Shown in pieces: positions 21,077 to 51,534 of a stretch of DNA of 64,000 nucleotides; position 1 is the first letter of the stretch, and each line of letters opens with the position of its first letter. The notes below the pieces were generated by a model that had not been told where the DNA came from, did not search any database, and saw only the letters and a program-made list of their open reading frames with translations. The position numbers and the translations under genes are program-made. Source of the stretch: Botryllus schlosseri (taxonomy: Eukaryota); contig CM119372.1 of the NCBI GenBank assembly GCA_051294905.1, forward strand, positions 31,994,001 through 32,058,000, given 5' to 3'.

Positions 21077-21182
21077 ATGGTACAGTGGAATAGACGGTTT
21101 CTGCTGTTTCAGCTTTGCTGCTCAGTAATATTGCAGCGTGCACTTGCAGGAGTGGTAGAAGAACTTTTAAATGCAGGAAAAG
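21077..21182 (+). CDS. First coding exon with signal peptide (MVQWNRRFLLFQLCCSVILQRALA/GVVEELLNAGK)
   Basis: Basic n-region, hydrophobic core and ALA cleavage motif; phase-1 donor aaag|gtaata. Confidence 0.7.
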
Positions 21183-24100: not shown

Positions 24101-27100
24101 GAATTACATAATGACTTTTTAAACATCGCTAAATGTAGCAACTGGAGCAATCAAATGATGTAGTAATCACATAAAATCTATATCTTCCGTCGATTTGCCA
24201 ACAATTTCGACGAAGACTTGCAAGGGAATATAAGCTTACGCCTTAACGGTCTAGGCCAGACCCGACAATGTATCCGGCGTCTGAGTGTTGCTACGTTGAT
24301 AATGATCAGAGTGTAAAACAGGTTTCGGTACTTGCAACCGATATTACCCCATTTAACAAAGTATACAGCAGTAGCCGACACCCCAATCGCATGGATTGGG
24401 TTTTTATGATGCAATAAACATATGAAATCGAGATGGCCCCCGTACGCTTGCAAGATTTTTTACGTCAGACAACGATATCAATTTCATTGATTGGTTGCAT
24501 AAGCATCATTTGCTGACTATACCTACATGTGGCGTATTTCGCTCTTGATGTTGCGTGATTGCGGGTTAAGCTCACAGCATAGAGTCACTAAATATTCACA
24601 AACGGAAAGCTGGATATTTTAAGCAAATTTTTGTTACAAAGCAAGTAAAATTTTTGAGATTGTCAAGGTGTAAGCTTGTTTTATGTTGATTTTTATGCTT
24701 CCATCGCCATGCATCGAGTGGCCCGCAGTTGAAATGCAATAAATTTCAACCCAAGATGTTATAATGACGTGAAAATTACAATATATGAAAAAGGTTCAGA
24801 GTGCAGAGAACCTACAAAGGTTCGTTGGTGAACGTGAACCTCTAAATGTCTGAGGTTCACTCACAGAACGCGAACGTGAAGCTCGCGTACACACCATCCC
24901 TATACTCTGCAGTCTACTTGGTCTGACTCATTTTCTACATCTCCTACTGTAGGCTATGTGCACTGTGCAGCATGCATAAGTTATTAAGTATATATAGAAG
25001 ACAAATATAGTTTAATATATGTGGAAAATTTGATAGTTTCGTCTTTGTCAATGAGAAATATTTTTCCGCATTTACATGCCAACCTTACCTTTTGCGTTGA
25101 AGGGGAAATAGAGAAAAACAGTCCGCATGAGTTTGGCGGGGGTCATCCGACTTTTGTTGAAACGAGCTTTTCAAACCAGCAAACAGGTACGTTGACCGTG
25201 TAGCCAATAAAAATGACGCAGTCTAATGTAGTTCCGGATATTTGTCTGATTATACTCGGTACGACTAGTCTTTTATTGATATAATGTAAAATTTGAATTC
25301 GTGGATCACGTAGATCAGGGGTTCTCAACCCGCGGCAGACGCTTGTTCTGCGGCCCGCGAGCTCTTTCAATATGATCGCAATTACTACCGGCACAGTATT
25401 GTTGCATATTAATTTAGCTACTTAAGCTCTCTTATCGCACCGTCTCTGTTTCGTTTGATTTATTCTCATTCTTCAATGTGTTCTGGTTTCTTGATATATG
25501 GTCGAGTTTAGATTCTTATTGTTTTGAATAGGTCTTCGGACAGTTCCATCTGGAGTTATACATATCACCTGATCTTATAAAAAAGCGTTACTAGCTAGGT
25601 CTGAGGCCCAGCAATCCATATTTTGAGGCATTGTTGAGATTGCCGACGATGTTAAAGACGCATGGTTCAAAATTGCTTGGTATATCGCTAAACCCCCATG
25701 GAATGTGCTAGAAAAAGTGTGTCTCCAACAAAACGTTACTATACTGTGCGAATCTCCGCTGTTTCCGGAATTTAGCAGCAAGGACAACTTCACCTAACAA
25801 ATTTCGAAGCTGCAGTTGTCTGATTCAACCGTGACAAGAAGAGTAACAGCAATGTCAGTTGATCTTTTGTCGCATGTTTTGAAACACGTTGCCGCGTACA
25901 CTACTTTAACCAAACATTGGACAAAATCCACGGACATTGCAACGCTAATTGTATTGGAGTATTCTATCGGAGTGGATATATTTGTAGACGTAATGCTGGC
26001 CGGGAAAACGTGGGGAGAGGGAACTAGCAAACAACATCAACTTGACAAAGCTGACATCTGTAACTATTGGTGCAGAGCATCAGCCACGGAAGGAAAGGAG
26101 AAGGGTTGAATGATTGGTTTGCTCAGAAGTTACCCCGAACAAGAGACTTCTTCTCGTATCACTGAGAGCTCAAAGTGACAATGGCCTCTGTAACGAAAAA
26201 GTTACCGTAATTTTATACTTGCTCGCTCACGCATTAAAACAGAGAGTTCAGTTCTCTGGTGCAAGGGTTTGAAGGTGCACATACCGACTTGGGAACGAAT
26301 GCAATGCACGCTTCATGAAGGGATTTACTTGTTCCGTCGGAAGATAACATAATCTCACTAGAAACAGCAACTGAAAGCTTACGAACGCTGTCTATTAATG
26401 CTGTAGAATGCATACAAATGCACTAAATGCCCATATACGACTGGTAAATAGGCTATATTAGCCTAAATATAATAGTAGTCCACAAATATACGGTAATAAT
26501 ATTCTGCGGCCCGCAGCGGTTTTTGCTGTTAAGATGCGGCCCGTCATGCAAGGAAAGTTGAGAACCTCTGACGTAGATGATAGATTGGTTGGAATTTTGA
26601 CGGGTAGGCCTACTCTCAAAAGCTTAGTCGGAGTATAAGTTGAGATAACCATATTGAGTTTGACAGTGCCGGCAAAACACCTAATATTAATGATCGACAA
26701 ACTGAATATTATAGTCTAAAACAGGAGTCGCGAACATACGGCCGGAAGGCCGTATCCAACCCGAGAAGCAATTCTGAGTAAATGAAACATTTCTTGCATT
26801 ATCCGCCACATTTCTATCAAAGTTTAGATTTTTAATAAGAAATGCTTTCATGTAAATAATTGCTTCAGACATTTTAACACATTATAACCCTGATTTCATA
26901 GTAATGAACCGAATTCCGAAGTTTGCGTTGACAGTTAAATATCTTGTATTCCCCACAACGAATACGGAGCAACGTAGGACCAACAATGTATCACGACTAA
27001 AACAGGTGGAACATAGAGATATGTTAACTTATATAGTTATTCATATATAACGTTGTAGGTTCATGCCACCGTTTTAGCAGTTTATATGTGCGGTCAATCG

Positions 27101-30100
27101 GCCAAATTATCTATTTGTATTAATTCCTTATTTGGCCAAATGGCAATGGCCATTTGGCGAGGTATAGCTGGACTAGATTCTCTGAATAAGTTCTCTATAA
27201 TCCAAAATATTATGCATTGTATATAGGCTTGATAATGAAGGATACCAATAAAAAGAGAGTTTGACAGCCCTGGTCTAAAATTTTCACTCCCTAAGGCCTA
27301 GACCTTCTCACTGTTTATATTAGGTCGTTGCGGCAGCAATATTTGGTGTTTGGGTTTGCAACGTACATCGACATTGTACGTATATATTGCTACTGGCACA
27401 GATGTCTCTATTGAAGTGTATACTCTGCCTTATTAGTAGCACTGTAGTATCTGTCTACCCTCAGTACTGACTCAAGGAATTTTGTCTTCTAACGACTTTC
27501 ACTACGAGTTCAACAATTTTAGGAAACGCGCTACTTTACGTTTCACCGTCTATATTTGGAAAAGTAAAATGTAACCTTTGGATGCATTTGCATCGACTTG
27601 TAAATTGCCGTTATATCCAAGTTATGTAGCCTATGCCAGGGACTACGGGAGCTTCACATTTATATAGAAAGTTGGAAATGTAGCGCCCCTATGCTCAATC
27701 TACACTAGCAACGAGACGGCATGACACGATTCCCCAGAATAAGTTGAATATTCAGCCTAATTTCGAAAATTGTTGCTTGCCATTGGCAAACTATTTCGTA
27801 TTTCGTAATTGCAATCTACTGCTCTAACTTCTCCCTCAAGTAATATTGAAATTTTCCACTTGAGTGCTCCTGCCAGACTTGATCATCAGTGCGTCTTCTG
27901 GTAATTGTGTGGAACTTTGCAACGAGTGCACTTACTATTAGCTGTGAATCATCAATAACTGATAACCACCTTTGAGAATTGGCAGTTCAATTTATTTTTC
28001 AATGTTTGAAGACTCAATAAAAACGCTCGTTTTTAAGGAATATATCTACCGACGCATTCGGACCTGGGTAAGATATCTTTCTGAGCTAGTCGGTATAAAT
28101 TTACCGAGACTCTTCCAATTTGCTGCTCAGGGAATATTTTATTGGGAACTTTCGGTATCTCTGATCCCCATGAGCTGGAAAAGATGTGGCATGTATTTAC
28201 TGGTGAGAGACATTCTTCTTGATTATTTTTCAACTCAAAACTAAGTTAAGGCGTTACAAGACATTGAATTAAAGATTAACACATCCGCGCATCAATCCAT
28301 TCACGTACACATGAACAGATGTACACTTGTAGAGTGTACAATGCTTGCAATTAAGTCTATATCTTTTTCGACAGAAATCGTGCGTAGGGAACAACGCAAC
28401 AGACACATGGAACTAAGTAAGTCATACCCAATTGAGGATATAATAGGGTTGATTTCCACGGATCATTTTTTCAGCGCTTCAGCTGGCACCGTATCCAGGT
28501 GGTAAGTTGTGAAATAATACGTGCAATTTTATGACCATGGGCACGGGATTTTGATTGTGTAATGTAATGGACACGTACAGGGTATCGAGACAGCTAAAAG
28601 CGGTCCATGACAATCACGCCAGCATATTCATATTTTCAGGTTCATGAGCCTCATGTTCACGTTATTTTCGTCGCCTTCTTTCGCGTGCGTCTTTCGTATG
28701 GTCTGCCATCCCTTATGAATAGAGAGTTACAGTTGAGGAGGATCGATCGACACTTGCAAACGCCACAGACCAGAAAGTCGAACCAGTTATCGTCAGCTAA
28801 CGGACTCTTTGTCCAGTGCGCACGGGCTACGAACAGCTTTACCAACGCGCTGTTTTTGTTTAATGCAAACGTTCCTAGCCAATAACCAGGCGTCACGGTC
28901 TATTATTGCTTACACGATAAGCCCCTATTAACCCTTTTAATGGGGGGGGGGGGTCAGTGGTGACCCAAGTTCAAGTTCATCTCTCAATTTCTCCAAATAT
29001 ATATGTCGTAGCGGACTGCTTCTGGTTTCTATGGAAAGCCTGCTATCTTCTGCTTTATATGATACCTAATTTGAACGTATAGGGCATGACAGTTTTCTAA
29101 TACCGACGATCTTACATGAAGAGTTCGGCTGAAAATGCCCATGTCTAAAATTTCCAGATATTTTCCGAGTGGGAAATATAGTCAGAAATTCTGCCAGAAC
29201 ATCAGAAGTCGACTTGTACGGTATTCTGTGTAATTTATCACCGTTTCGAACATCAAACCTTGTTCTGGGGAATTTTGTGAGGGAGTTTGTTAATTGTGGT
29301 CACGCTTCGGTGATTTTCAAAAACATAGTCAAGTTCAAGTCCAAGTTCGCGACGGAATATGACTCATGAACTGGTTTACTATGCCTGCAAATGGTGGGAT
29401 ATGACAGGAGACAGTATACCACGTTGTTTCATGCCATTAACTGGGCGGTAGGGGTCCGATTTGGTATTGATCTTGAACTTGACCATCTTGAACTTGACCA
29501 CTCACTGACCACGCCCATATGTAAATTTTTCATGTATTTTTGATTTTTCGATATCCGGCGAGCCGCGTGGCTTACGGTCATGGTTGACGGCTTGTTTGAA
29601 ACCAGGCAACGGTGGCTACGCACTGAGGCATCATTTTTGACTCTCTGACGCTACCCTGGGGGTCAGTCTAGAAAAATGAGAGAGAGAAAGAGATTTTTCA
29701 GAAAAAAGTTTGTTTATTTAGTCTTATAAAAAACCCTTGACATGGCATGGGGTGTCGATCGAGGGCGGAAACGGTAGATGGCTATACTCCGGCCACTTTT
29801 AAACTGGATCAGCTCAGATTGAAGTCTTGGTGAGGTCACGGTATGAATTTGAAAAGTGATGGTCAGTTCTGCAAAAACTGACCCCCCATTAAAAGGGTTA
29901 AATCTCCTGCCTAACAGATCATCCATATCTAGAAGTACTCTACCTATGGAATGAATATATATAATTGTATCCTGACAAAACTCTTGAATTTAGAACACAA
30001 AAGTCATCCCGATATTGAAGACCACCTCCTTCAAATGCAGAGCGGTAAGAGAGAATGCATATAATCACGTGCACGGGATACTACTAAAAATGCAATAAAT

Positions 30101-33100
30101 GTTAAGTTGTATTGAGTATGCCTACGCTCATAATGCGATCAACCCGCCACTTATGATAACTTGTTAAATTTCAGAGGGAGGGCTGAATCCGGAAGTACTG
30201 AATCATGTAACATATATGGCAATGATGTATGTAAATAGTAAGTACCTTCTGCGCCTAATTTGACATCATATATTTAAGACAGGTACGGGTCAGAGTTTCT
30301 ATGCGGATTCGAATGTAACGTCCGACGATAACGTTAGTTAGGGATATGACTGAGTCCGTATCTCGCTATTTACTCCAGGAACATAAAAGTAGCCAGTATG
30401 ATTTCACGAAAGTATCGGTGAATATAATTTAGGTAGCGGGTTGGCGTGGTTCCGTTCACACCGCATTGTCGCCATTCACCCATATGAAATATTTCATTAC
30501 AGCATATATCGCTTATCATAACGTTTGAAACTGATGTTTCGCAATCTAGTATTTACTTATCATTTCGTAATCTAGCAGTCCATGGCGTGTCCTCATCTGG
30601 AAACGGGGACTCTGACTATTTTTAGTTTTAGAGCAGTTTTAGCATACCACCTTTGAAAATTTCTGGACTAAAGACATTTTCCGCTATTAGAAGTAGTATT
30701 TATACTTCATTTTCAATTCCCAGTATCATATACTTTGAGTTCTAATTAATATCAGTTCTTTTGTTTGGATACCATACATGTTGAAGTATAAAAACAAGTG
30801 TAGTAATGCCTTTAATTTCCAGAAATAAAGCTACACGACATGGCATTTTTGCGATCCGCCATTTTTTTATTAACCTTTACTATCTCGCAAACTGTTTACA
30901 CCGTATCCTATACAACTTATCCGTATTGCTCTGTGACTAAACTACGGGCCGTATGATATGGGGGAGGGCACCATACCATGATATTTTCTGAAACATGCTG
31001 TTTGAGTAAATGAAGGATTAGTATCGCATTTCCATCATATCAATACTATCATTTTCATCCCATTATGCGGACGAATACTTATGCTGTCGAAAATTGGATA
31101 CCTCCTGGTATGTATCAATATGAATCAAGCTCGGCACCTTTCGCATAGCTCAATTTGCAGCTTTTGACAATCCATGCGAACGAAATACGATCGTTTTCAA
31201 ATCTACTCACTTAATTGAGTGGATTTAGAGTCAGTAAATTCTACTTCTACTTCACGTAGTTTTGGGTTGCTTATGGAAGAAGTACTTCTACTTCTACTTG
31301 AGTAGCCGTCTTGACTACTTTGACCACCTCTGATATCCCGCAATTATACAGACACGAGATATTCAAATTCACAATGGCAAACGGTGCTAAAGTATGAAAC
31401 GTTCTAGAATATGAGATGAAGCTCGTGCAAAACTCTCACAGCATGAAAATAATAATGCCATTTCCTGAATTCGACCATTGGAATTTTTTACTGGAGCTCT
31501 ATCGCAGTTAGGGTTGCATTTAAAACAAACGGTGTTTTAAAACACTTTGTTGAAATCATGTTTTAAACAGTGTTTTAAACAATGGCCTTTAAAAAAAATT
31601 GTGTTTGTTTAAGGTGTAAAATTATGCCAGTATTGTGTAAATACTTCAACAAAAAACATGTTGTATGAGCCTACGGACAATTTTAACCGATGTATATAGA
31701 TATGGGATGGTTGGAACCCTCAAAATAGTCGGTTCAACAGCAATAGTGCAGATATTTCGTCAAAAGAGCTATATTTACCCTATATTTTCAATTGTCAATG
31801 TCAATTCACTATGACGTCACTTTTAAATATTCGTGACATCATGGCCTAAAACACAATGAAAAACATGTTTTAAACATGGGCCTTGTTATAAACATGTTTG
31901 TTTTAAATGCAACCCTAATCGCACTGGTTCTCAAACTGGGGGCGCGCCGTCATCATAACATTCGTAAGTGACTTTCTGCATTAATGCATATTGCATTCAA
32001 ACTTTAACAGGGCTGATAGATTTATATATCTATAATTTCGGTATCTATATTGAGGATACACATTTCTATAAATCAAGCGTTTGCGGCTTATATTCGTGAC
32101 ACGCAATCATCTGAAAATTTCGAATAATATGTCTATCCGCAATGGACATACTAAGCAGATACATTACAGTTTCATACCAATATAATTCACTTCCCAGTTA
32201 CTATGCTGCATGTATCTCGTATCGTCTGCAATTCTTTAACGTGTATTTCAGACAACATGAGAGCGCCGAAAGGAATGTATGGACTGCATGGTAAGTCAAA
32301 TATATTATGCCCGACAATCTGCCGATTTGAACTGAAAAGTCCACTACTTTTGAAACCGCATTGTACATAAAATATTATTAAAATAAAATAAATAAAATAG
32401 AAATCCCAAATATCGTCATCTCCGACCTAAAACCTACATATATTCCACATATTGACTTTTTAAGCATACGATAGATTGCTTATCGACAAGAATAAAGCAG
32501 TTTATGCAATTCGTGATGAGTGCTGGTACTGATGTAGCAGTGCACTTGTCGAAAAAGGCACATAGCGTGGTGTGGTGGTAGTAATGGACTAATGGTGTGT
32601 ACCTTGTAGTAGTAGATGCACCAACCGCGACTGTATACATTTCTATGTGAATAACACTGTGGTGAGATATGGCCGTTTTCCCACAGTCCATGATTACGAT
32701 ACTACAGATTTATTTTTAATGATCGTCGCAGTAACAAGTGACGTCACAGTGTTTTTCATGGCTTTTTCGTGGCTGTACTGTGTACGCGTATAGGAAAAAT
32801 AACATTCAGAATTAAGTATTAAAACGACAATTTTACGCTCGAATATTAATTTGAACACAACTCAGATACATCAGATGAATTAATGAATTTTTAACGTGGT
32901 GGTGGCCACCCCCCCACTAATAGAATGGTTAACATTAGGTATACAAGTGTGTTATGCCGATGCTTGAAACCAAATGGTGATTATAAGCTGTTAGCAGCAA
33001 CCACCGGCTCGTCGATTATAGCCAATTCTACTGTCTATTTGCCTCCAGGACACACAACGTTAACCGCACGCTAACGTTAATCGTCAACGTTTTCCGCAAA

Positions 33101-36100
33101 AGGCTGGCAGTATTTGGAAATTTTGTTGTGGCTAATCTAGGACGTGGACTTGCGTTCTTTGCGTTTTCTGTGAAGACGAACTGCTGCCAGACACCCTTCA
33201 CTGTCGTCTTAAACATTTTTTAAATCAATTTATGCGCTTTATTTAGCAATTCATAGTTTGAATAATCAATCAATAATTTGACTTATCGGGTCCGAAGAAT
33301 CCTTTCGAAATGTAGTTCGCATTGATTCATTTATAAAGGAGTATATATTGCTTCACCACCGATGACAGAGAAGAAATAGTTTTCTGTTAATTTCTTATTG
33401 ACCACCGGGCATTCATCTTCTATTTTCGCTATTTGGTCAAGTCGGAAAGTTCGTTGTCGATGACAACGCTGAACAAATTTACACTCTACGAAAGCGAGAT
33501 CTTTTGAAATAAGCACTTCGGTCGGACACTAATAACTTGTCCCACTTGCTAAACATATTCGGGTATTATTTACGTTATTATCCAACTAATGCTGTGAGTT
33601 CACCGCAGCCGAAACTGCGGTCGGGCTAATGCAGAAACAGCAAATATACAACCTACTTCAAAACTATATTATGGCGATAATTTATACTTATAAGATAGAA
33701 TAAACCGAGAAAAGTATTAACTATGTCTTTATATATTTTCGCGAAATTATATCTACATATGATATATCTTTGCTGGAAGCCTTCGCGGGTGGCACAAAGA
33801 GTTGCTGCAGGATGCATGCGACCCACAAGTCGTATTGTTTGCCCAATGTCCTGCTCTACATTGTAAATTGTTCACTCGGAACCTATCATGGATTTGCTCC
33901 TTCGGTAATTCTCATGGCAAGCAATACATGAAGTAACATATAGTCACCAGCGTAATAAACTAATTCCTAGTCCGACTAAAAATTATATTGTAATTAAGCA
34001 TATCCATGTTTTAGTTCAAGTCTGGCAAAGGGAACGACTTAGTGAGTATTAATCTGCCGGTATGAGGGTACAGAATTCTGAATTTACGATTTCGCACGTG
34101 TGATTGTAATTGACAGGCGAAACCTTGAATGCTGAGTTTGGACAACAAGCAAACAGACACTTTAATGGAATGTGGTACCAGTACGTAGGTAAGTGTTAAA
34201 ATACCATGCATCTCCGACAAGGTTGATATCGTATAGTCGATTTACCTCCACGTATTTCGTAACTCACCATGCCCCAACACTAATATTTAACTGAATGCGG
34301 TGATGTCCATGAAAACGCACTATTACTCATTCGCCGATTTGAATACGCAAACCAGACTGTATTTAATATAGGCATTAATGTGATATCTTTGTGCGCGGAA
34401 TATTTGTACATTGTCGGTTAAAACAACTGAGGCCAATTTTAGAACTTTTTATTTCGCTCAAAAATGAATATCAGAGATATCGCACGATTGAGTTAGCAAA
34501 ATCGAACACCCATCAAAAACGCCGAAATGACATGTGACTCGACGGGTAGCATACACTAATCCTTGAGTAGCTGACTATACTTAAAGAATAAAGTCTAACC
34601 TTATCCGCAAATGACTCCTTTACCATAGATAACGTTTTTTGTGGTTAACCTCCATGAACTCCTGATCTAGAGTTTAAATTTGTTGTTCAAGAAAATATAA
34701 TGGAAGTGTGGAAATGCTCATACGACAATATGGTTGTGATTCTATTTCAGACTCTATCGACAAAGCAATGGAGGCACGTAATTTAGCACCAAGTATGACA
34801 ATATCTGTAGTTTTCTAAGAAACTTTGAGAACTAATAATATGTTATTTTTAGTGTTCGTGAGCGTTGAATTACCTCCAGCAGGTAATGTCTCTATAGCTG
34901 AGGATTTTATGGTCAGCCTCAATATTAATTAGTAACTGCATGTAATTTATACGGTTTCACACTTGGTGATGAAATCGAAAGTCCTGACACTCAGTCCTTA
35001 ACGGTATAAAAGTATCAAGCACGTCTGTGATGCAGATGAGAAATGCAACATCCTTCATTATATGTCGTAAGCATGCAAACATAGTCAAAATGAATTCGTC
35101 ACGCGAACAGCTACCGCTACTAACCCGTTCAGGTTACAGTGTAGGCTTGATGCTGCGAATATATTTATTTACTTAGAAATGCGGCACAGGGAGGACATGA
35201 GAAGACGTATGGACCAACTGCTGCAACGTAAGAAAATAGCCTACCTGTGTCGTGGTATAGTCACTGATGTTCCATGGTACGAAACTAAACGTACTGGAAT
35301 TCCTACACAAATAGCATATCAAAAGAATGAAGGATTTCTATGGGGCAACAAATTTATATTAATGCCCCTATAGTCCAGTGTTAACATGGCCCTTAACTTT
35401 GGACTATCGGCGTATAAGCGGTAGTACAACGTCCTTCATAATGCTACAAAGGTGATATAGTGATGGGTACACGACGTTTTACGGCGGTGTAAACGACCAT
35501 TGATACAGTCAAAGATTGAAAGAGACTTATGTGAATGTCATTATAACACCCACAATTGCCTCATACTTGATCTTCTAAAAGCAAATCAATATTATATATT
35601 TCAGAGGGAGACCCTGAAGCGCAAATGATGGCTCGAGTGGAGGAATTATCAATGCAATATATGGATGGTAAGTTTTGAAATATAGCATACACAGTATTTG
35701 AGTTGTTGAGCAATACATGAACGCTTTTAATGACCTCGAAACAGTAGCAATGGTCGAAATTAGGATCAAATCGTGTAGCACTATTTATATACGATAGGAT
35801 ATTGAAATAGGGTCAATACTTAAACATGGGAGCCATCAATAAGGGTGTGCTAATATCAGCATTAATACTTTATGATGCAGCAGTCAATGTACAGTAGAAA
35901 TATAAATCCTGCGAACGCATATACTGACGAGGTTGTCCGTTATTTTGGCATGTAACTTTATAACCTCCCTTCAAAAAAACGAACTCCAACTTAATCATGG
36001 CGAGGATCCTAACACATGCTAAAGCGTCGCATGCCATTGTCTCGCCGCTCGTCACATGTCGGCGAAACAAAATATGCACACCCAGGCACGTACCCAGGAC

Positions 36101-39100
36101 AAGAATTAAATTGAGTCATATGCATTTTTCGGTGGGTAAGACAAGTTAAATTTCCCTATATCATATTAGTATACGTCCATTGTGATTTAATAAACAGACT
36201 GCGTCACAAGGTTTGAGTTGTAAACGTGGGCAAAATGAGCCATTTGCCCATCCTTCTATATTTCTTTGTATACCGCAAAGATCGGCGACTGTATTAACCG
36301 TAAAGAATATTTTGGTACATTTATGTTTTAAATTTCGATTCTTGGGTAGCAGTAGCAAGCCGCCGTGACTGTTCCATCACCGATCACGCATCATTTGGGG
36401 CTCTTCGAAGTAAAATAGGCGCCCTCAATTCACCGCGCCCGGCTTGACAAAAAACCATGGCTGTCACCTAATGAATAATCCGAATCTTTATGCAGGTTTT
36501 CTAAAGGAAGTCGAAATTGAAAGAACGACTCCAGGTTAGAAATGTTCCGGTCGCTCATTTTGCCTTATTTTGCATGAGTAGCAAATTCCACCTTTCTTCG
36601 TCTGATAGTTGTGTACTAATTGATACGCATGGAATATTTGTTGATAATGCTGTATATGGTAACGCACTCGATATTAAACACAGAAACTCCCCGAAATTAT
36701 TGTCAGTAATTTAATCTGCCTATTTTGACCAGATTACATTCGATGAAGACAATGGAGACATGACACTAGTAGCATGTACAAATGATTAATCAGATGTTGT
36801 GGTGGCAATTGAAAGTGGTGTCATCAATGTAGATTCCTCACGAGTCCGAACATGTATATTGTTGATATATTATGAATCGGGTAAATCGATTATTATATAA
36901 TCGGTTAACTTGACTTGACCCCAGTCAAAATGTGCAATGACTCGAAATGACTTGTGACTCGAAGGTATAGTGACTTGATTCCAACACTGCATTCTAGTGT
37001 CATAAATATTGTGACTCAATCATGGATTTTATTTTAATCGATTGGGAATCATTTGAGTGAAGGAACTACGAGCATTTCGATCAACGCCTTGGAAGCTTCT
37101 ATTTAAATTATCTGAGCGAGTCCAACCAATCCTCCAATCCTATCTCAAACTGACTTCTAATGCAAATGAACGCGACACCACCCCACCTTGAACCCAAGCC
37201 TTGATGTTTTTTGACAATTGCCTTGAATCATTGTTACAGTGATGGCGCAAGAACGACGGAAGTTGGGTGAGATCGATGAAGCAACAGCAATCATGTCGAA
37301 ATGTTTTTTCATGTTCCTGAAATTCCTGTTTACAGATTCATTCTTGGACAATAACTTTGAAAATGTGGGATACGAGACGAAAAGAGATATGTGGTATCGC
37401 TACGCATGTGAGTACTGTTTCGATTGAATGTATAGTGATTGAATATCTTTAAATTTCCGCGTAATCTTGAATAAAAACAAGTAATGACTTTTTTGGTGTA
37501 TTGCAGTATTCATATCTAGGCGGAAATATTTTTAAATTGAAAATCATCTCATAAAATACAAAAATTAAATTGCGATATTTAGAATAACAGTTCATAATTA
37601 TAATATCAGGTAGACGGAAAAATAAGCGATGTAGCATGCGCCTGTATAAGTCAAATTCACAAATATAAGATGTACAATTAGTACAAATATATAAATGTCG
37701 GCGGTGATTGAATTATATATGTTAGATGTAGCACTGATCGTTGCTTGCGACGTCAAGTAGAATGAATTAATTTTAAAGTAAAGTTTAAAGACAATTGAGA
37801 AATGTAAGTTGTTGAAAATAAACACTTTATGATAGCGATTAGATATTGACGCACACCATCGAATGAGTGGTGGTTTAAGACACCAAGCCCACAGCCGGTT
37901 GAACTCACCGAAGAAAAATTAGTATCTTACACATTTCCTATAATCAAGCGCCTCGCGCCGTATACGGAGCGCTGGGTTCAAACTATGCAATATGCATCGC
38001 TCAGTCGTTTGTGCGAAACGTCTTCGCTTTTAAAAATGAGAAAAATATATTTCTTTTCATTCTTCACAGCCAGAATTCATGAAGAAATACAGGCATGGAG
38101 ACCGCCAGAAAGACCAAGTATGAAACAATGACAATATTGGTACTTTCTGTTGAGGTGTCTTAAAATGAACAATGGGGTACGTTTCAGATTTTCTGCAACC
38201 GATTCTTCCAATTCGTAAGTAGTATTAAGCTAGGGCATTTCGACACGACAATGACTTCTGGCAAAACATCCCTGCCGACGTTGTAATCATTACCGCGAAC
38301 ATCATTATTTCTCACTATAATTGAAACTCGCGTGTACTTCCGTACTGCAATGATATATTAGGAATATACTCTTCCTTCTGGGTATACTGATGATTCTGTT
38401 TCTTAAGGATATTTAAGCACTGTCATTCTTTAATTCACTAATACCCGTTCTGTTGTTATAGCGTACGCAGACGAGCTTGACTTTCAACGTCATATGAGTC
38501 AAATTCAAAGAGGTAAGATATTGGCAGCTTGTGTTAACATCATTAATTTATCATCAATGAAGATAATGCTTGAAATATATAGTACCCTGCGATTACTCTC
38601 ACATCCTTCGTTTCATACATGTAATCGACTCCATAAGTGACAATCATGTCCCGTTTTGTAATATTGTAAAGTACACTATGTATATCTAAATTGACAGTTG
38701 TGTCGATTACTCTTTTATGGACGTAAAGCTGTGATCTACAACAGGCTGTACCCGAATGGGCGATCGTTTAGTTAGCAATGGCATGTAAATTATTGTCTCA
38801 ATGAATCACGCGAGTTATTGTTAAAAGCTGACCAAGAACACATCTCTATGGGCTATCAGATATACATTTCCTATTTTGTTGTTGTTGAAAACGGTCCCCG
38901 CAAAGCTTTAGTACCGTACATCACATACAAGTGATGCAGCTCCACGGCAACAGCAACTCAGAAAGGCTATTGTGGCTATTGTTACGTTACGTTCGTACAG
39001 GCCTATCACAATATACAAATAGGCTATGTAGGATTGTAGGCCTATACTGTTCATGTTCATAGAGTACCATTGAACTTTTTAGGTTTGATGAACAGAGGTG

Positions 39101-42100
39101 GTCAGTAACGAAGTACTTCTACTTTTTCGAAGTACTCAAGTAGTTTTCCTCTACTTTTGTTACTTACTCAAGCAGATCCGATTTTCGCTACTTCTACTTC
39201 TACTTCGTAATATTTTGTGATCTACTTACTTACTTTTCGCTATTTTCAGTTTGTCAAGTAGAAGTAGTTCAATCTTCCAATCAGGAAGATAGCCTGAGAA
39301 ATTTCGGGGCTGTTTTCACGGAGTATCAACATTTAATTTTCACAAAAGTTGAGTAAAGCCAAGAATTTTCGTCGTGCTTCGCGCGCAGTGGACATGTAGT
39401 CACCAGTATGATTTCACGAAAGTATCGGTGAATATAATTTAGGTCGCTGGTTGGCGTGGTTCCGTTTACACCACATTGTCGCCCTTCGCCCATATGAAAT
39501 AATTCATCACAGTATATATGGCTCATCATAACGTTTGAAACTGATGTTTCGCAATCTAGCATTTACTTGTCATATCGTAATCTAGCATGTCCACGACGTG
39601 TCCTAATCTGGAAACGTGGACTTTTTTTTAGTTTTAGAGCTGTTTTAGCACACCACCTTTGAAACTTTCTGGACTAAAGGCATGAAATACATGCTCTGCT
39701 TTTAGAAGTAGTCTTTATATTTCACTTTTAATTCCCAGTATCATATGCTTTGAGTTATAATTAATATCAGTTCTTTTGTCTAGATAAGATACATGTTGAA
39801 GTATAAAAGCAAGTGTAGTAATGCCTTTAATTTCCGGAAATAAACCTACACAATATGGCATTTTTACGGTCCACCATATTTTTTATTAACGTTTACTAAT
39901 CGCGTGTTTACACCGTATCCTATGCAACTTCTCCGTATTGCTCTTCGACTAAACTACGGGCCTTATAATATGGGGATGGCGCCGTACCATGGTATTTTCT
40001 AAAACGTGGTATTCGAGAAAACAGAGGATTAGAATCGCATTTCCATATCAATACTATCATGATGTTGATGAATGCTTATGCTATCGAAAATTGGATACCT
40101 GTTGGTATGCATCAATATGAATCACGCTCGTCACCTTTCGCATAGCTCAATTTGCACCTTTTTACAATCCATGTGAACGAATTAGGATCGTTTTCACAAC
40201 TACTTACTTACTTGAGTACTTTTAAAGTCAGTCAATTCTACTTCTACTTCAAGTAGTTTTAGGTTGCTTATGGAAGAAGTACTTCTACTCGTACTTGAGT
40301 AGATTTTTTCGTCGCTACTTCTACTTCTACTTGAGTAGCTTTCTTGACTACTTTAACCACCTCTGTTGATGAATGAAACCCCGTTCTTGTTGAGCAGAGT
40401 ATAGTGTCTGTTGTTTAACGTAGGCCTACATAAAGTAACCAAGGTCTATTAGAGCAGTCCTTTTAAATTAAATGGTAACCATTTCGCCATTATTGATATG
40501 TAAGTCAAAAGGGTGTCAATAGGGCAGTGACGATTGAAAATACTAGTTTTAATTTGTGTATTTCCATGCCTAATATGCAAAACTTATCAATTCGTTCCTA
40601 TTATACTGATCGATCTATTTATAGTTTTTTTGGAACTTTCCTTTTCAGACGGGGGACAGGAATCTGAAATCATTCAGGTTGTGGATGCTCTCGCTGATGC
40701 TTTTGTGCTAGGCAAGTATAGAACGAATGTTAGTTAGACTATGAACTAGTTATAGTACATTCTTAGATATATTTTGAACTCGTCACGGCAGATGAGCACT
40801 TGAACGGATTCTTGTTTAGTTTCATGTTTATAATCTGAAATCAATAAGTCAAAACTTTACCAAAATGTTGGATGACTTCTCCAGAAATCGGAACTTTTGG
40901 GTTAAAGTGTGACGTCATTTAACATCCCGAACAATTTACTTCTTTCTCTGTATATTCCAGCTTGATATGGTTGTTCAAAATTGACCAAATTTCAAATATA
41001 AATATAAGTGATCGTTTAGGTCAGGGGCGGGCAACATACGGCCCGCGGACATTTTCCCGTCTTAGTTGATAATGTGGCCCGCCAGCCGGTGTCCCGTCAA
41101 TACCGAGAAAACCATTACCGAGAAAGCCATTACCGAGAATGGACATCATCGAGAATGGATATTACCGAGAATGCAATGTATGCAATGCAGGCATGTTATG
41201 TATATAGACAGGTCGTGTGCATGTGCGTGACGGTTTTGCCACATTCGGTGTCGATTCTCAAATATAAATTTCTTGACAACGGTTCCTCAGTAAGTTAGAT
41301 TCTTGGCATTTACCGTTTTCGGTAATGTCCATTCTCGGTATTGGTATAGAACCGTAAATGCCGATACTGTAAGTCTTCCCGCTTCTACTTACTTACGCGT
41401 GAGCTCCACTCTCGCACGCTGCGCACACACGCAAATAATAACATACAGTCATTAAAATTTGACGTAGTAAGCAAGTAGTGGGGAATCTCGACAGACTTAG
41501 GCCGCGGGGGCTCTATACCAATAAAGAGAAAACTATTACCGAGATGCGCGCGAGAGTGGAGCTTACGCGTAAGTTCGTAGAAGCGAGAAGACTTTCATTA
41601 ACGGCATTTACGATGTACTCAACCCTAATGAATTCATATCTTGTTAAATTTGGGGTACCGGGCTTATCGAACGCCTTGCAATCTAAATTAAGGATTGCAC
41701 CATGTGTTGACTGATCAAAGAGAAGCAGACATGGCGACGCCTGTATGACAATGGTGTTCTCAAATCCACATTGTCTTCGTCATCATCGGCGAGAAATGGC
41801 TTTGAAATGACATTGCTGTCGTTACAATACATTCATTACATGCGATTTATTCCTAGTATATGAGGACAAATGGGCGAATATTGTATCGATTCAGCTATCC
41901 GACCCGCCAAGTATACTTAATTTTCCTACATCCGGCCCGCCGACTGGAGAATTTGCCCGCCCCTGGTTTAGGTTGAAGATCTCAATGTAGCTAACGGTAA
42001 CCGTTAAACAATGAGAGGGGGATTTGCATGGTGCTAAGTATAATAAAAAACTGACAAAGACGTTCTTACGATTCCGTTAAAGAAGCAAAGCTATATTTAG

Positions 42101-45100
42101 ATACAGGTACTGACAAAATTCGGATTTTCAGCCACTTTCAAATAATGCGTCGTGAAATAAAGTGTTTGCATCACAATTTTAAAGCAGTAGTTCTCAACCT
42201 TTTTGACCTCGCGGACCTGTAAAACTGAAATGATAATGTTTGCGGACCGGTGAACCTTCAAAATCTGAATTAACCCTACATCTCATTGGAACAATTACAT
42301 GCAACTCAAATGTAATATTGGAATCTTCATTTTACGCTGCCTTTTTGTTATTAGATATTTATACGTCGTTCTATTTGAAGTTTTTGCAAGGTGAAGCTCC
42401 CGAAGTCCTGTTAATGACCACTAACCTGATTATGATTGTTTGGCATCCTTTGAAAGTAATGCAACTTTGCTCTGGCTATAGCATCTGATATAGCCTACTG
42501 CCACGGGTCGCTAAATTGCACCGCCTGAATTTAACGAAGTTTGATGAAAAATCTCCGCTGTTTTGGCATAAAACTTGTCCAAAGTTGTAGCCCACTTCCA
42601 AGCATTTTCGTATAACAATTTATTTCTGCTGTACGCCCAAAGTGGTCCGTGAACTCTCTATTACTATACCATGCAGAGATGGTTGCATGTTTGCAAATTT
42701 AGAAATCAACTTAGAATATGATGTGGTAACTGCATCTGGTAACTGGTTGTAATCAGTGATATTCTCAAAGTTAGTCAATTCTGAACAACCCCGCTGTATG
42801 TTCACGAGTCAAGGATGTGAAATTGTGGATTCACATTACTATAGGTCGCCTATATTGTGGATTCACATCACTTTAAGTCGCCGGTGTGTCTCAAACTCAA
42901 GACAGCTATAGCTTGTTGTATACGATTCAGCGTCGTCTGATGAGTATTGACGCACAACATCCATTATATGATTGGTTTAATGAATATTCCTGCAAATCAT
43001 TTAGAGGAAAAAAGCATACTATTATTGATTATATCCTTACTAATTTCAGGTTTTGAATCAAAGACACACCACACAGGTAGGAATATTCGGTACAGCGATC
43101 TATATTTGGTCACTTTCATTAGATATTTTCCTAGGTTCCTGTCAAAATCGATGCTACGAAGATTATGATTCTTCTCACCAGGGATGCCACTGCAATAAAG
43201 ATTGCGTGAAGCATGGAGACTGCTGTGCAGATTTCAGAGCCACGTGTAGCTTTGGATGTACGAAACTCACATTTAACAGCACTCCAGTGGTATCTGACAA
43301 ACTTTTAGGCACAATTTGATCCAAGTTCGAAAGACATGAATCGATCTACAATGTTGGATCCGAGTACACGACACCAAAATGATTCTAAATGATTTGAAAT
43401 CAAGATTCCGATTAATGCCGATCCCTTCTCCAAGTCTAAGGGCGTAAATTTGGAATGATTAAAGAGTCGATGATCGCGTTCATCAGGATTTATTATTCCA
43501 AGATTCAGGAATCCGGTTGATCGCTGCGCATACAGTTGATCGAGTTACATTTTTCATACCATGATTTAGCAAACCTCGACAGACTGTAGGCCTACACTTC
43601 ATAAAATTCCTACGCACAAAGACAGACAGACAGACAGATTCTTTATTCGTACGATGATTGTTCACACAAATATGCAAAAATGACAAACACAGCGATATGA
43701 CCACATCAAGATGTGTAGTCTTCAAGTCAGCTGTAGTCAAGGCATAACATTAGAACATTTATATCATGCAACTGTCGGTCAGTAACACTTCAACAAAAGA
43801 TTAAACAGCAAAACGCTAACGCAAAACAGTGGTAGTAGAAAAAAAAAAAAAACTGTAACACTAGTTCAAAATAATACCAGATTATACTCTCAGGTCTCAA
43901 TATGTAGAAATGAGCTGAGACTTAAAATTACGACAGAATGATGCAAATGACAAATCTCTGTGCTCTATTGATAAGGAGTTCCATATCCTTGGACCAACAA
44001 AAGTTAAGGATCTCTGGCACACACTAGCGGCTAAATTCTGTATAAAGATATTTCCAGCAGTGGCGGATCTAGTTCCGTGAGAGTGGACACCGGCAGATGG
44101 CGTAAAGATGCGGCTAAGAGCAGAAGGGAATTCACCATGGTGATATCGGTACATGGTCTTGGCAATTTCATAAGTGCAGAGGTCGCGCACTTTCAATATC
44201 CCCAGGGATTTATATCTTGGAGAAAGACGCTCGTATCGGCCCATGCCACTTATCAAACGGATAGCCCTATTTTGGAGAACTGCGATGTGATTCAAGTAGG
44301 TATCGTAAGTTAACCCCCAAAAGATGATTCCATAGTCGAGGTGAGAGTGGAAGAGTGAAAAATATATGTCTCTTAGTACAGATCTAGGGAGAATATGTCG
44401 CAAGCGAGCTATAATACCTACTGCCTGCGCTAATTTGCTGGCAAGAGCTGCTAGTTGTGGCTTCCAACTCAAATCTTTATCAATACATAGTCCCAAATAT
44501 TTGACATTAGGGACTGCTGATAGTTTATCTTTGCCGATGGTCAAAAAAGGAGAAGGTAACAAGATCTTAGGTCTGACATTGATAAGAAGGACTTGAGTTT
44601 TTGTTGCATTGATATTCAATTTGTTGAGGCTCATCCAATGACAGATTTTTTTCATTTCAATATTGACTGAGTCTTGTAGAATACTCAAATTGTTGTCGGA
44701 TTTATACAGGCAAGTGTCATCAGCAAATAAGGTAGTCGAGAATTTAGATGCACCTGGTAAGTCGTTTATGTAAATGATAAAGAAGAGGGGGCCAAGAGCT
44801 GAACCTTGAGGAACACCGCAAGTTATTTCTCTTAGCTCAGATTTCGTACATTGGTCACCAACAAATTGTTTCCGGCAGTTTAGATATGACTTGAACAAGG
44901 CTAGCGGTGTCCCTCTAACCCCATTGTACCATAGTTTATTCAGAAGTATTGAATGATCTACCGTATCAAATGCTTTTTTCAAGTCAAGAAATATGGAGCA
45001 ACCGACCTCCTTAGATATAATTGTTGATTGGTACTTGAGCATTAGATCTAAAATGGCATGTTGAGTATTGTGATGAGTCCGAAAGCCGAATTGATTGGGC

Positions 45101-48100
45101 CATAATCTGGTTTGAAAAAATTCAGAGAGCCTCGAGTGTAGAAGCTTTTCAAAAAGTATTGCTAGGCAAGATAAGACTGATATTGGTCGGTAATTATTCA
45201 TTGACATTCTGTTTCCTTTTTTGTGTACAGTAACTACTCTGGCTACTTTAAGAGCTTCGGGAAAGATTCCTAAAGCCATGGATTGATTGTAGAGATGGGC
45301 CAATATTGGAGAAATTGCAGGGAAAACTGCCTTTAATATTTGCACAGATAGCCTATCATGACCCTCTGCTTTATTATTTCTCATGTTGGCGACTATTATG
45401 CTAATCTCTCCTATGTTGGTGGGACTCAAGAATATACTGTTGGTACTACTACGTGGTGTACTTTGGTAGTGTTTTGGGGGGAGATTAGGGCAATCAGATG
45501 CAAGTTTTGGCCCAATAGAGGTGAAGTATTTATTTAATGCATTAGCTACATTATTTGGATTGCTAACAGAATTGCCGTTGTCATCAATTACAATAGGCGG
45601 GATGGTGGCATGGGAGCTGGAGGGGTTGATTAGGTTTCTAATAGTTTTCCAAGTTTGGGCTTTATTGTTTCTGCAGTTATGAAAGTGACGAGCGAAGTAT
45701 GATTTTTTTGCCTTCGTTTTAATGTGGCTTAGCTTATTAGCATATGCCTTGTACTGTCGACGTTGCGCTTCAGTACCATTTAAATACCATACACGGTGAA
45801 GCTTATTTCTAGTTTTGATAGACTTCAAGATACCAGTAGTGATCCATGGTTTGCAGTAAAGCTTACGCTGCTTACGAGACAGACATGATAACGGTATATG
45901 ATGATCTACCAAATTCATAAGTTCGGTCATAAAATTATTGAAAGTCATATCAAGTGTGTCATATGTTAATGCTGTCATCTCAAAGGTGCCAAACTGATTG
46001 AATGCAGCATCTTGAAGACTCTTAAGAGAGTTGGTGGTAGGAAGGCGCTTATAGATAGGTTTCTTATTGGATAAAGGAGCTCTTGTGAGACATTTGATCA
46101 AAACTGGAAAATGGTCCGTAAGAGGATATTCGATAACAAAAGGGTATATAGGGCAGGAAGACACATTTGTATAGATATGGTCTAGCAAAGTTGATGAGTG
46201 GTCAGTAAGTCGAGTAGGAAGTGTAATAGTTGGATCTGCACTATGGGATTTCAACATATTGATATAATGTAATATGGGTTGCGATTTCGATAGTAAGTTA
46301 ATATTGAAATTTCCCATGATGAAATACAACTTTTTATTTACATTTAATAGTGATAAAGTTTGTGACAGATGTTCTGAGAAGTCATCAATGTTGGATGAAT
46401 TGGGGTGTCTATAAATGATTCCAACTATTATGGATGTTTCTCTTCCTATGGGACAAGAGATTTCGATCCAGATATCCTCAACCTCAGCCATGTTTAGATT
46501 GTAGCAGTCTGCTACAACGGTGGTACAAGAGGAATTTACAAAGACACCGGTACCCCCAGCATTTGTAGGAGTTGGCTTATGAAAAAACTGATAGCCATCT
46601 AGAGCCAAGCCACCGGTGTCGGGAGTTTTTAGCTTGGTTTCTGATATGCCAAGAATCATAGGCTTGGTATTGAAGAACGAGATAAGATCATTTACATCAT
46701 CTATGTGGTTTCTTAGGGATCTGGAATTGACATGAATGATAGAAAGGTGCATTGAGCTTTTAGTATTGTTTAAATTGGCTGCAACATCTTCAATTGATAA
46801 TGAGGAGCATGAATGGACATTGTCATATTCAAAGTCGGATGTATCTAGCATTGTAACAGAACTATTGGAATAATTGGTGTCCATAGTAGGTAACATTGCT
46901 TACTGGTAGACCATAGGGAAATTGCACGGATGATTGATTCTAGGTCATCTTCTTCAAGTCATCAAAGTTGGAGATCTGGAGCACAGATGACTTTGAGTTC
47001 TTTCTTGTGAGAATTCTTCCATATTTAGTCCACAGGTAATCATAATCATTCTTTCTTTTTAGTTTCCTTGCCTCGAACAGTAGGTTGCGAGTTCTTTCGG
47101 TGAGGTTTTCGACTATGTAAATATCCGAGTAATTTGGAATGCTTGCTGAGTTTTCAACGGAACGAAGCATAGATCGAGATTCAAAGACTTTGTTTCGTAT
47201 TACACGAGATCCAAACTTCACAATGATTGGCGAGGGATTACCATTTTTATCGCTTGTGGGGAATTTCCTGTGTGAGTAGGTGATATCATTGGCCTGAGGG
47301 GGGACCTTTATTTTGGACATGATCTCCTTGATGAGAATATCAGTGTCTTCGGTGGTACTGGTAGGTATGCCGTTGAACTCGAGAAGATCAAGTCTTGATT
47401 GCCTGTCGGTTTCTTCATACTTCTCAGAGAGATCAGTAATTGATTTCTTCTGTTCATTGATAATCAGGGCAAGTTGTTCGATTGACTTCGAATTTTGCTT
47501 TATTGAGCCAGTATTAATCTCCAGTTGTTTTTCCATTTCATCAAACTTATCTGTAATGAATTCTTGGCTCTTCTGAACTTTTGCAATTTCTTCACTCATC
47601 TCTTTCAAGGATGAATTGATATTTGCCAGAGTTTTCTGGACATTCTTCATAGTATTGGTTTTGTTGAATTCTTCAAGACAGTTTTTGATGATGGAGGGAA
47701 TTTCATTTCTTATTTTTTCAAGTATCATCTGTTGTTCCGGGGTCGCCATGCTGTTCTTGGGAGGATCGCTGGGTTTGCTTCTTGTCATTTCACAGTACCG
47801 GTAGCAATTTACAGTAAAGTAGGCTACTGCTAAACCTTAACCTTTAATACAACCAAATACTCCAATCAATCAAATACTCCACAAATATGTCCGATACTGA
47901 CCGTGACGACTGTATCACAGGTTAATGGCTTCACTCAATGAATCAATGAATCATGCACGAACCATTGTAGAGCAATGTATCTTATTTATATTCCATACTC
48001 CGTTGCGTCGCTGCACCGTACTAATTGGACATGACTTTCAATTCGAGATGAGGATAATTCTACCTGTTCAAATCGTTGTATCAGCAGCCGACCGTTTCAT

Positions 48101-51050: not shown

Positions 51051-51534
51051 TTAATGCTTATAAGTAACAAGTGCATATTATATTTCATGATTGACATTGT
51101 CGTATACACCAATACATATATGAACTATATCCGTATATTTTCCCATATTTTGGGACAAATAAACCCGCGCTTTTTGTGGTTATAGAAAGATTAGGATTCT
51201 ATTTCGGAAATAGAAATTGAGAATTTGAAGGGCAGTTTCAGATAATTTTGATCTTTTTAACGGGATCAGACGCATCCCGGATTGTTGTTGTGTAAGCCTA
51301 AGGTAGCCTACGTGATGCGTTATAACACGGCAGCTGCAGAAAATGAGAGTCAAACTTTTGTGAATAGGTATTATTCTCATTACTACAGCAAATTATTCTT
51401 ATTTTAATCCACGTACAATACACATACGAGGAGTCAAGTCAATACACTTTGAATTTACATTTTATTCCATCATAAACGTTGCGGAAGCAGCACCGGCAAT
51501 AAACGCGTTTACGAATAGTATTTCAATCTTTCCC

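What the first reader, a model, noticed from the sequence alone, without database searches (positions are those of the whole stretch)
28038..43076. Seven-exon module triplicated with conserved exon lengths but strongly diverged sequence
Seen: exon-length series 30/72/42/27/51/63/39, 27/72/42/30/51/63/39 and 27/72/48/27/51/63/27 (108, 108 and 105 aa). The 72-nt exons keep F and MW at equivalent positions (GTFG..EKMWHVF, AEFG..NGMWYQY, NNFE..RDMWYRY). The 51-nt exons all end at a gtaaga donor, and the 63-nt exons start xG. Inference: an unrecognised ~108-aa, probably helical repeat domain. Low identity despite fixed exon geometry suggests either ancient duplication or diversifying selection.
Basis: partly seen in the sequence, partly recalled or inferred. 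Interest (0 to 1): 0.75.

Follow-up and report, generated by a model that had tools for sequence, protein, structure and literature searches.

The report
Triplicated helical module, secreted orphan protein
Three sets of seven small exons encode three related, much-diverged copies of a predicted helical module inside a transcribed 33-exon gene, likely from a sea squirt, for a predicted secreted protein; the module has no known counterpart so far, but growth by internal triplication is a familiar way for genes to evolve.

Summary
All 21 exons are present with the stated lengths, motifs and donors. The period of seven beats 1,000,000 permutations, and the three modules are homologous (19-24% identical in the equal-length exons; leave-one-out 23-35 bits, 0 of 1000 shuffles). 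They are the middle of a 33-exon, 798-residue open frame: signal peptide, short repeats, three modules, two somatomedin-B domains, orphan tail. All 32 modelled introns are phase 1. The 3' part is transcribed and one joint is spliced in single-cell RNA; no read joins module exons. Synonymous sites are saturated or at least as diverged as replacement sites, which favours old duplication and gives no sign of diversifying selection. Each module has amphipathic helices in shared register. The joined module was never folded or scanned against Pfam, so fold and novelty stay open. Triplication with kept exon pattern is known (albumin, schistosome MEG-26). The scan noted this same gene before; look-ups found it on no other DNA. 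Likely a repeated binding unit of a secreted protein; moderate interest.

The parts
21077..21182 (+). Predicted first coding exon: ATG, signal-peptide-like stretch, phase-1 donor
   Evidence: most hydrophobic 19-mer starts at residue 9; start suggested by note e1-7884079; no RNA support
22586..25186 (+). Five predicted phase 1-1 exons (22586-22630, 22698-22760, 22990-23076, 23640-23726, 25103-25186), Pro/Gly-rich; the two 87-nt exons are a young tandem duplicate
   Evidence: 75% over 126 nt; dN 0.25, dS 0.52
28038..28067 (+). Module 1 exon 1 (30 nt)
28131..28202 (+). Module 1 exon 2 (72 nt; L, F, MW motif)
28375..28416 (+). Module 1 exon 3 (42 nt)
28475..28501 (+). Module 1 exon 4 (27 nt, Pro-rich loop)
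29994..30044 (+). Module 1 exon 5 (51 nt)
30175..30237 (+). Module 1 exon 6 (63 nt)
32252..32290 (+). Module 1 exon 7 (39 nt, linker)
34015..34041 (+). Module 2 exon 1 (27 nt)
34117..34188 (+). Module 2 exon 2 (72 nt)
34751..34792 (+). Module 2 exon 3 (42 nt)
34853..34882 (+). Module 2 exon 4 (30 nt)
35177..35227 (+). Module 2 exon 5 (51 nt)
35605..35667 (+). Module 2 exon 6 (63 nt)
36496..36534 (+). Module 2 exon 7 (39 nt, linker)
37240..37266 (+). Module 3 exon 1 (27 nt)
37336..37407 (+). Module 3 exon 2 (72 nt)
38070..38117 (+). Module 3 exon 3 (48 nt)
38188..38214 (+). Module 3 exon 4 (27 nt)
38462..38512 (+). Module 3 exon 5 (51 nt)
40649..40711 (+). Module 3 exon 6 (63 nt, GC donor)
43050..43076 (+). 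Module 3 exon 7 (27 nt, linker)
43135..43257 (+). Somatomedin-B exon 1 (123 nt), 58 nt after module 3
   Evidence: Pfam PF01033 E 2.2e-11; donor at 43257 seen in spliced reads
48556..48672 (+). Somatomedin-B exon 2 (117 nt)
   Evidence: Pfam PF01033 E 3.6e-10; acceptor seen in spliced reads
49262..49836 (+). Three predicted phase 1-1 exons (49262-49315, 49529-49648, 49714-49836)
   Evidence: no Pfam match for the two scanned; no joint seen
50626..51050 (+). Terminal coding exon: orphan Cys-containing domain ending in an EGF-like piece, then stop
   Evidence: relatives P0002 81% and P0001 51%; RNA depth in X17, X20; 3 of 3 listed read differences synonymous
43897..47867 (-). Intronic LINE retroelement (two ORFs), not part of the host protein
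   Evidence: skipped by the 43257>48556 joint

Best explanation
The stretch holds three homologous seven-exon modules that likely arose by an old internal triplication within a gene for a predicted secreted protein, and each module is predicted to fold as a small cysteine-free bundle of amphipathic helices that likely serves as a repeated binding unit. Shown: exon geometry, mutual homology, two somatomedin-B domains next door, transcription of the 3' part. Inferred: one transcript through all 33 exons; a fold of three or four helices (short helix, long helix with the invariant Trp, Pro-rich loop, then a helix-Gly-helix pair) packed by the conserved hydrophobic faces; exon lengths survive because intron positions and helix lengths change far more slowly than surface residues; the protein is a multivalent extracellular adaptor or matrix component made by a restricted cell type, in which the somatomedin-B pair docks on a partner and the three diverged modules present three related surfaces.
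For: Geometry and conserved short introns. Homology. Single 798-residue frame with an N-terminal hydrophobic stretch and none as strong later (max KD19 1.83 at residue 9, 1.13 after residue 30). Phase 1-1 candidates with strong sites: 9 on the gene strand, 1 on its opposite strand, 1 and 1 on the two strands of the upstream 21 kb. Shared-register hydrophobic moment at 100 degrees: 1, 3, 58 and 229 of 5000 shuffles for the four helices, 1480 of 5000 for the loop (segments picked by eye). Second positions better kept than third, pS >= pN in 3 of 3 pairs. No stop or frameshift in 33 exons. Terminal exon conserved in 2 unnamed relatives with all 9 Cys columns of the window copy invariant. Joint 43257>48556 in 4 reads from 3 starts, and terminal-exon depth 2.6 and 0.66 in 2 of 2 single-cell runs, 0 in the 2 bulk runs laid there.
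Against: The charge-hydropathy index is borderline: +0.05, -0.06, -0.07, so the modules may not fold alone. No structure model of a module exists. No relative of a module was found (weak search), so constraint across species is shown only for the tail. M2-M3 has pN close to pS. The binding role rests on architecture only.
Confidence: 0.55

Rival explanations
1. The modules are largely unfolded and form helices only on binding a membrane, a partner or each other, as in a structural tunic, glue or granule protein.
For: Charge-hydropathy index below zero for M2 and M3; no Cys in the 320 residues; symmetric small exons are typical of disordered secreted proteins such as MEGs (bioRxiv 2023.06.21.545858, passages).
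Against: Invariant L, F, M, W, G, V in fixed register and fixed exon lengths after synonymous saturation suggest tertiary packing; composition is not low-complexity.
Confidence: 0.15
2. The modules are small lipid- or hydrophobic-ligand carriers, working like nematode polyprotein allergen units or albumin domains, possibly cut apart after secretion.
For: Tandem, diverged, all-helical units of about 108 residues with one invariant Trp; NPA units also have one conserved Trp and can be highly divergent (PMC3079579, passages).
Against: No K/R-x-K/R-R motif at module borders; the only R-x-x-R is inside a helix of M1. No Cys, whereas NPA halves are defined by a Cys. The gene is intron-rich, whereas repetitive polyprotein regions have few or no introns. 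Exon profiles give no PDB match (weak).
Confidence: 0.12
3. The gene is a micro-exon-gene-like diversifier: because every internal exon is symmetric, exons or whole modules are skipped in combinations to make a family of secreted variants.
For: 32 of 32 modelled introns are phase 1; for 7 independent positions the chance is 2e-4 to 8e-3 at a phase-1 share of 0.3-0.5 (shares assumed). MEG-26 has the same repeated exon-length pattern with an amphipathic helix (PMC5825161 section 19).
Against: No skipped form was seen (no module joint at all). Exon borders cut through predicted helices, so most single skips would break a fold. Only 7 of 33 exons and 8% of the coding length are 36 nt or less, against about 80% in MEGs. 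My exon search favoured phase 1-1 exons.
Confidence: 0.1
4. The modules diverged under diversifying selection, as a recognition or immune protein would.
For: Low identity; M2-M3 pN 0.53 against pS 0.61, pN > pS in 21% of bootstraps; signal seen in single-cell but not bulk runs.
Against: pN > pS in only 1.1% and 0.4% of bootstraps for the other two pairs. The 3 listed read differences in the tail are synonymous. A contig piece over module 2 exons 1-2 differs at 2 of 151 letters, while mostly intronic pieces differ at 16 of 302 and 20 of 294 (different haplotypes, a weak hint).
Confidence: 0.06
5. The module exons are a decayed or mis-assembled prediction and not part of a working gene.
For: No RNA joint among module exons; one GC donor; three AAG acceptors in the model.
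Against: 21 of 21 open, periodic and homologous; no disabling change despite synonymous saturation; neighbouring exons spliced in RNA.
Confidence: 0.02

Closest known systems
Serum albumin gene (PMC8835714, passages read)
   Same: Secreted all-helical protein of three homologous domains whose exons are placed alike in each domain, attributed to triplication of one primordial domain.
   Different: No sequence link shown. Albumin domains are larger and disulfide-rich (recalled); these modules are about 108 residues, Cys-free, cut into seven exons of 27-72 nt, all phase 1, and fused to somatomedin-B domains.
Schistosome micro-exon genes, esp. MEG-26.2/26.4 (PMC5825161, passages and section 19; bioRxiv 2023.06.21.545858, passages)
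   Same: Secreted, symmetric small exons, internal duplication with a repeated exon-length pattern, amphipathic helix.
   Different: MEGs are schistosome-specific, short, with about 80% of the coding region in exons of 6-36 nt and documented alternative splicing; here 8%, an 800-residue mosaic protein, and no skipping seen.
Nematode polyprotein allergens, ABA-1 (PMC3079579, passages)
   Same: Tandem diverged helical units with one invariant Trp.
   Different: No basic cleavage motifs between units, no Cys, many introns, extra domains; lipid binding untested.
Proteins with a tandem somatomedin-B pair (Pfam PF01033; ENPP1-3, EndoU/PP11, PRG4 named from recall)
   Same: Signal peptide plus two adjacent somatomedin-B domains, one exon each.
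   Different: No Pfam match to their catalytic or hemopexin domains in the exons scanned; the pair follows the three modules and precedes an orphan tail.

Membership tests
Internally triplicated gene (albumin-type history) | Three homologous units | tested here: met
Internally triplicated gene (albumin-type history) | Same exon pattern and phase in each unit | tested here: met
   (predicted exons; module joints not seen in RNA)
Albumin superfamily (membership) | Disulfide-bonded domains (recalled feature) | tested here: not met
   no Cys between residues 16 and 480
Schistosome-type micro-exon gene | Symmetric internal exons | tested here: met
   31 of 31 internal exons have lengths divisible by 3, phase 1-1
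Schistosome-type micro-exon gene | About 80% of coding region in exons of 6-36 nt (PMC5825161) | tested here: not met
   8% (7 of 33 exons); 47% (24 of 33) at the looser 81-nt limit
Schistosome-type micro-exon gene | Variants made by exon skipping | tested here: inconclusive
   no coverage of module joints in 6 RNA runs
Nematode polyprotein allergen | K/R-x-K/R-R cleavage motifs between units | tested here: not met
   against the motif in PMC3079579
Nematode polyprotein allergen | NPA fold and lipid binding | not testable with these tools
   the spliced module could not be folded; single-exon profiles gave no PDB hit
Any Pfam repeat or domain (module) | Profile match above cut-off | tested here: inconclusive
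   only exons 2 and 6 of each module (6 of 21 exons) as such, plus three read-through stretches, were scanned: no family
Somatomedin-B domain protein | PF01033 match above gathering score | tested here: met
   44.3 and 40.4 bits against cut-off 23.1
GH56 hyaluronidase (tail; lead from e1-9199235) | Catalytic barrel and profile or fold match | tested here: inconclusive
   no Pfam or PDB sequence match; models too poor to search (pLDDT 42 and 48); only about 100 residues lie between the somatomedin-B pair and the terminal exon

The most novel reading that the evidence does not exclude
A chordate gene in which an undescribed helical domain is cut into seven fully symmetric small exons and triplicated, with all 32 introns in one phase, so that exons or whole modules are skipped or swapped to make a repertoire of secreted recognition proteins: a micro-exon-gene-like diversifier outside schistosomes, with a new fold that may also be buried, Cys-framed, in the gene's own terminal domain.
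Probability: 0.1. Interest if true: 0.72.

Novelty: new variant of a known kind. Interest (0 to 1): 0.42.

Why it matters
It supplies a candidate new extracellular helical repeat in a lineage-restricted protein that automatic gene callers and sequence databases seem to miss, and a clean case of exon geometry outlasting sequence. The unusual part is that a likely folded domain has all its internal introns in one phase; if skipping is found, it would be a protein-diversifying device so far described for schistosomes. If not, it is an orphan secreted mosaic protein with a familiar history.

Full report
Observation. All 21 are there with the stated lengths, each bounded by AG and GT (one GC, at 40711), each phase 1-1 and open. 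The three 72-nt exons share L3, F7, M18 and W19, the three 63-nt exons share G1 and V11, and the three 51-nt exons end at gtaaga. Shuffling the order of the 21 lengths never reached the observed period of seven (0 of 1,000,000).

Homology. Joined in a script, the modules align with z 4.7-8.2 (global) and 6.5-10.0 (local), 0 of 2000 shuffles in each of six tests. In the equal-length exons 2, 5 and 6 they share 11, 14 and 14 of 59 residues without gaps (0 of 10,000 shuffles each). A profile of any two modules finds the third at 22.8, 34.7 and 30.4 bits, with shuffle maxima of 7.8, 17.5 and 8.0. Exons 1 and 7 are not clearly alike and look like linkers. No fourth copy was found in the window.

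The whole gene. The modules sit in a chain of 33 predicted exons from 21077 to 51050 that gives one open frame of 798 residues with all 32 introns in phase 1. The start at 21077 and the first somatomedin-B exon were leads from earlier notes that I then checked. Order: a signal-peptide-like start; about 130 Pro/Gly-rich residues with a young duplicate pair of 87-nt exons; the three modules (residues 159-478, no Cys); two somatomedin-B domains (Pfam E 2.2e-11 and 3.6e-10); about 100 linker residues; and a 141-residue terminal domain ending in an EGF-like piece (E 0.005 for P0001, under the cut-off). My search favoured phase 1-1 exons, so I ran a control: strong-site candidates of that class number 9 on the gene strand, 1 on the opposite strand, and 1 and 1 in the upstream 21 kb. 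Exons of other phases hidden in the long introns are not excluded.

Is it expressed? In single-cell run X17, 4 reads from 3 starts join 43257 to 48556 (GT..AG), linking the two somatomedin-B exons across an intronic LINE. The terminal-exon bin has depth 2.6 in X17 and 0.66 in X20, on one strand, and 0 in bulk runs X21 and X24. That the strand is + rests on my recall that the second mate is sense in such libraries. The three read differences listed in the terminal exon are all synonymous (40 of 278 rows were shown). No read joined module exons in X17, X20, X21, X24 (region 32101-52000) or among the rows shown for X19 and X23 (region 21501-41500, 15 of 252 joints shown). Only 3-13% of each run was read, and 6 of the 8 raw RNA runs offered were laid. 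So the gene's 3' part is transcribed, while the splicing of the modules and their link to the 3' part (a 58-nt intron) are inferred.

Relatives. The terminal exon has two unnamed relatives from assembled public runs, P0002 (81%) and P0001 (51%); all nine Cys columns of the window's copy are invariant. No long relative and no relative of a module was found, and look-ups in earlier scan notes found no look-alike in other genomes. The organism is likely an ascidian. This rests on earlier AI notes (unchecked) and on a 26-nt leader that begins hundreds of RNA reads with diverse continuations, which differs from the 16-nt Ciona leader in PMC7986045 (passages) and resembles, from recall only, that of stolidobranch ascidians.

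Old duplication or diversifying selection? Identity by codon position in exons 2, 5, 6 is 36/49/27%, 41/54/29% and 46/47/42%; flanking intron identity is 28-32%, about background. Nei-Gojobori gives pS 0.83, 0.83, 0.61 and pN 0.58, 0.53, 0.53; pN exceeds pS in 1.1%, 0.4% and 21.1% of bootstraps, and dS is saturated in two pairs. The data therefore show an old event with constraint at second positions; M2 and M3 look closest. They give no sign of positive selection, but 59 codons at saturation cannot exclude it.

Likely structure. Averaged over the three copies, hydrophobicity peaks at helical periodicity in four segments: a long one with the MW motif (1 of 5000 shuffles), the last (3), the third (58) and a short first one (229); the Pro-rich loop does not (1480) (segments chosen by eye). 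This fits a three- or four-helix bundle around an invariant Trp. Against it, the charge-hydropathy index is borderline (+0.05, -0.06, -0.07). The spliced module was not folded or scanned whole. Single-exon scans found nothing in Pfam or PDB and have little power. Two models of the terminal domain were too poor to use (pLDDT 41.7 and 47.9; searches). One odd lead: the module profile matches a helix-forming segment of P0001 (3 of 2000 shuffles), but not the window's own tail or P0002, and profile-profile comparison is not significant.

How it most likely works. I commit to a secreted, multivalent adaptor or matrix protein from a restricted cell type, whose three modules are folded helical binding units (0.55). 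Secretion is inferred from the start and the somatomedin-B pair; restriction from signal in 2 of 2 single-cell and 0 of 2 bulk runs at the 3' end; the binding role from architecture alone. Rivals: fold-on-binding helices (0.15), lipid carrier or polyprotein (0.12), exon-skipping diversifier (0.10), diversifying selection (0.06), artefact (0.02).

Comparison with what is known. Triplication of a helical domain with matching exons is the accepted history of albumin (PMC8835714, passages). A repeated exon-length pattern with an amphipathic helix is described for schistosome MEG-26 (PMC5825161, passages and section 19). The gene fails MEG membership on exon size (8% of coding length in exons of 36 nt or less) and NPA membership on cleavage motifs and intron density (PMC3079579, passages). 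PMC3691228 (passages) and bioRxiv 2023.06.21.545858 (passages) were read for context. What is not accounted for is the single phase of all introns inside a likely folded unit: 2e-4 to 8e-3 for seven independent positions at assumed phase-1 shares of 0.3-0.5. No paper on this protein turned up.

Verdict. Real feature, real gene, familiar evolutionary route, candidate new helical repeat with an unusual all-symmetric exon design. New variant of a known kind; interest 0.42.

Noticed in passing
window 47842-47867 (-), at the 5' end of the LINE 43897-47788 (-): An intact two-ORF LINE (999-aa RT/endonuclease, 282-aa ORF1) starts with a 26-nt piece that also begins hundreds of RNA reads right after the template-switch adaptor and continues into unrelated sequences: a spliced-leader-like sequence, with a partial second copy just upstream. 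It suggests a retroelement whose RNA was trans-spliced before insertion. No Rfam match.
   Followed up: partly
window 44296-45232: Reads in all 4 RNA runs skip 935 nt inside the LINE's ORF2 with non-canonical ends: likely a transcribed, internally deleted family member elsewhere in the genome.
   Followed up: no
window 30350-31340 and 39090-40365: Two similar copies of a roughly 1-kb non-autonomous element lie 9 kb apart in module introns (contig joints skipping about 9000 nt); they are insertions unrelated to the triplication, as they sit in non-equivalent places of modules 1 and 3 (after exon 6 and after exon 5).
   Followed up: partly
window 22770-23737: A 650-nt exon-plus-intron tandem duplication made the two 87-nt exons (75-80% identical): a young example of the same growth mechanism in this gene.
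   Followed up: yes
window 50870-50990 and P0001 residues 66-98: A helix-forming segment in the terminal domain resembles module exons 2-3 (aromatic, Trp, Tyr, Ile spacing); significant in 1 of 6 tests only.
   Followed up: partly
window 22387-38486 (contig pieces of runs X11, X12): Mostly intronic pieces from other samples differ from the window by 5-7% (17 of 284, 16 of 302, 20 of 294): a highly polymorphic species or cryptic lineages.
   Followed up: no
window 6400-7600: A decayed transposase-like coding stretch with stops, seen while reading.
   Followed up: no
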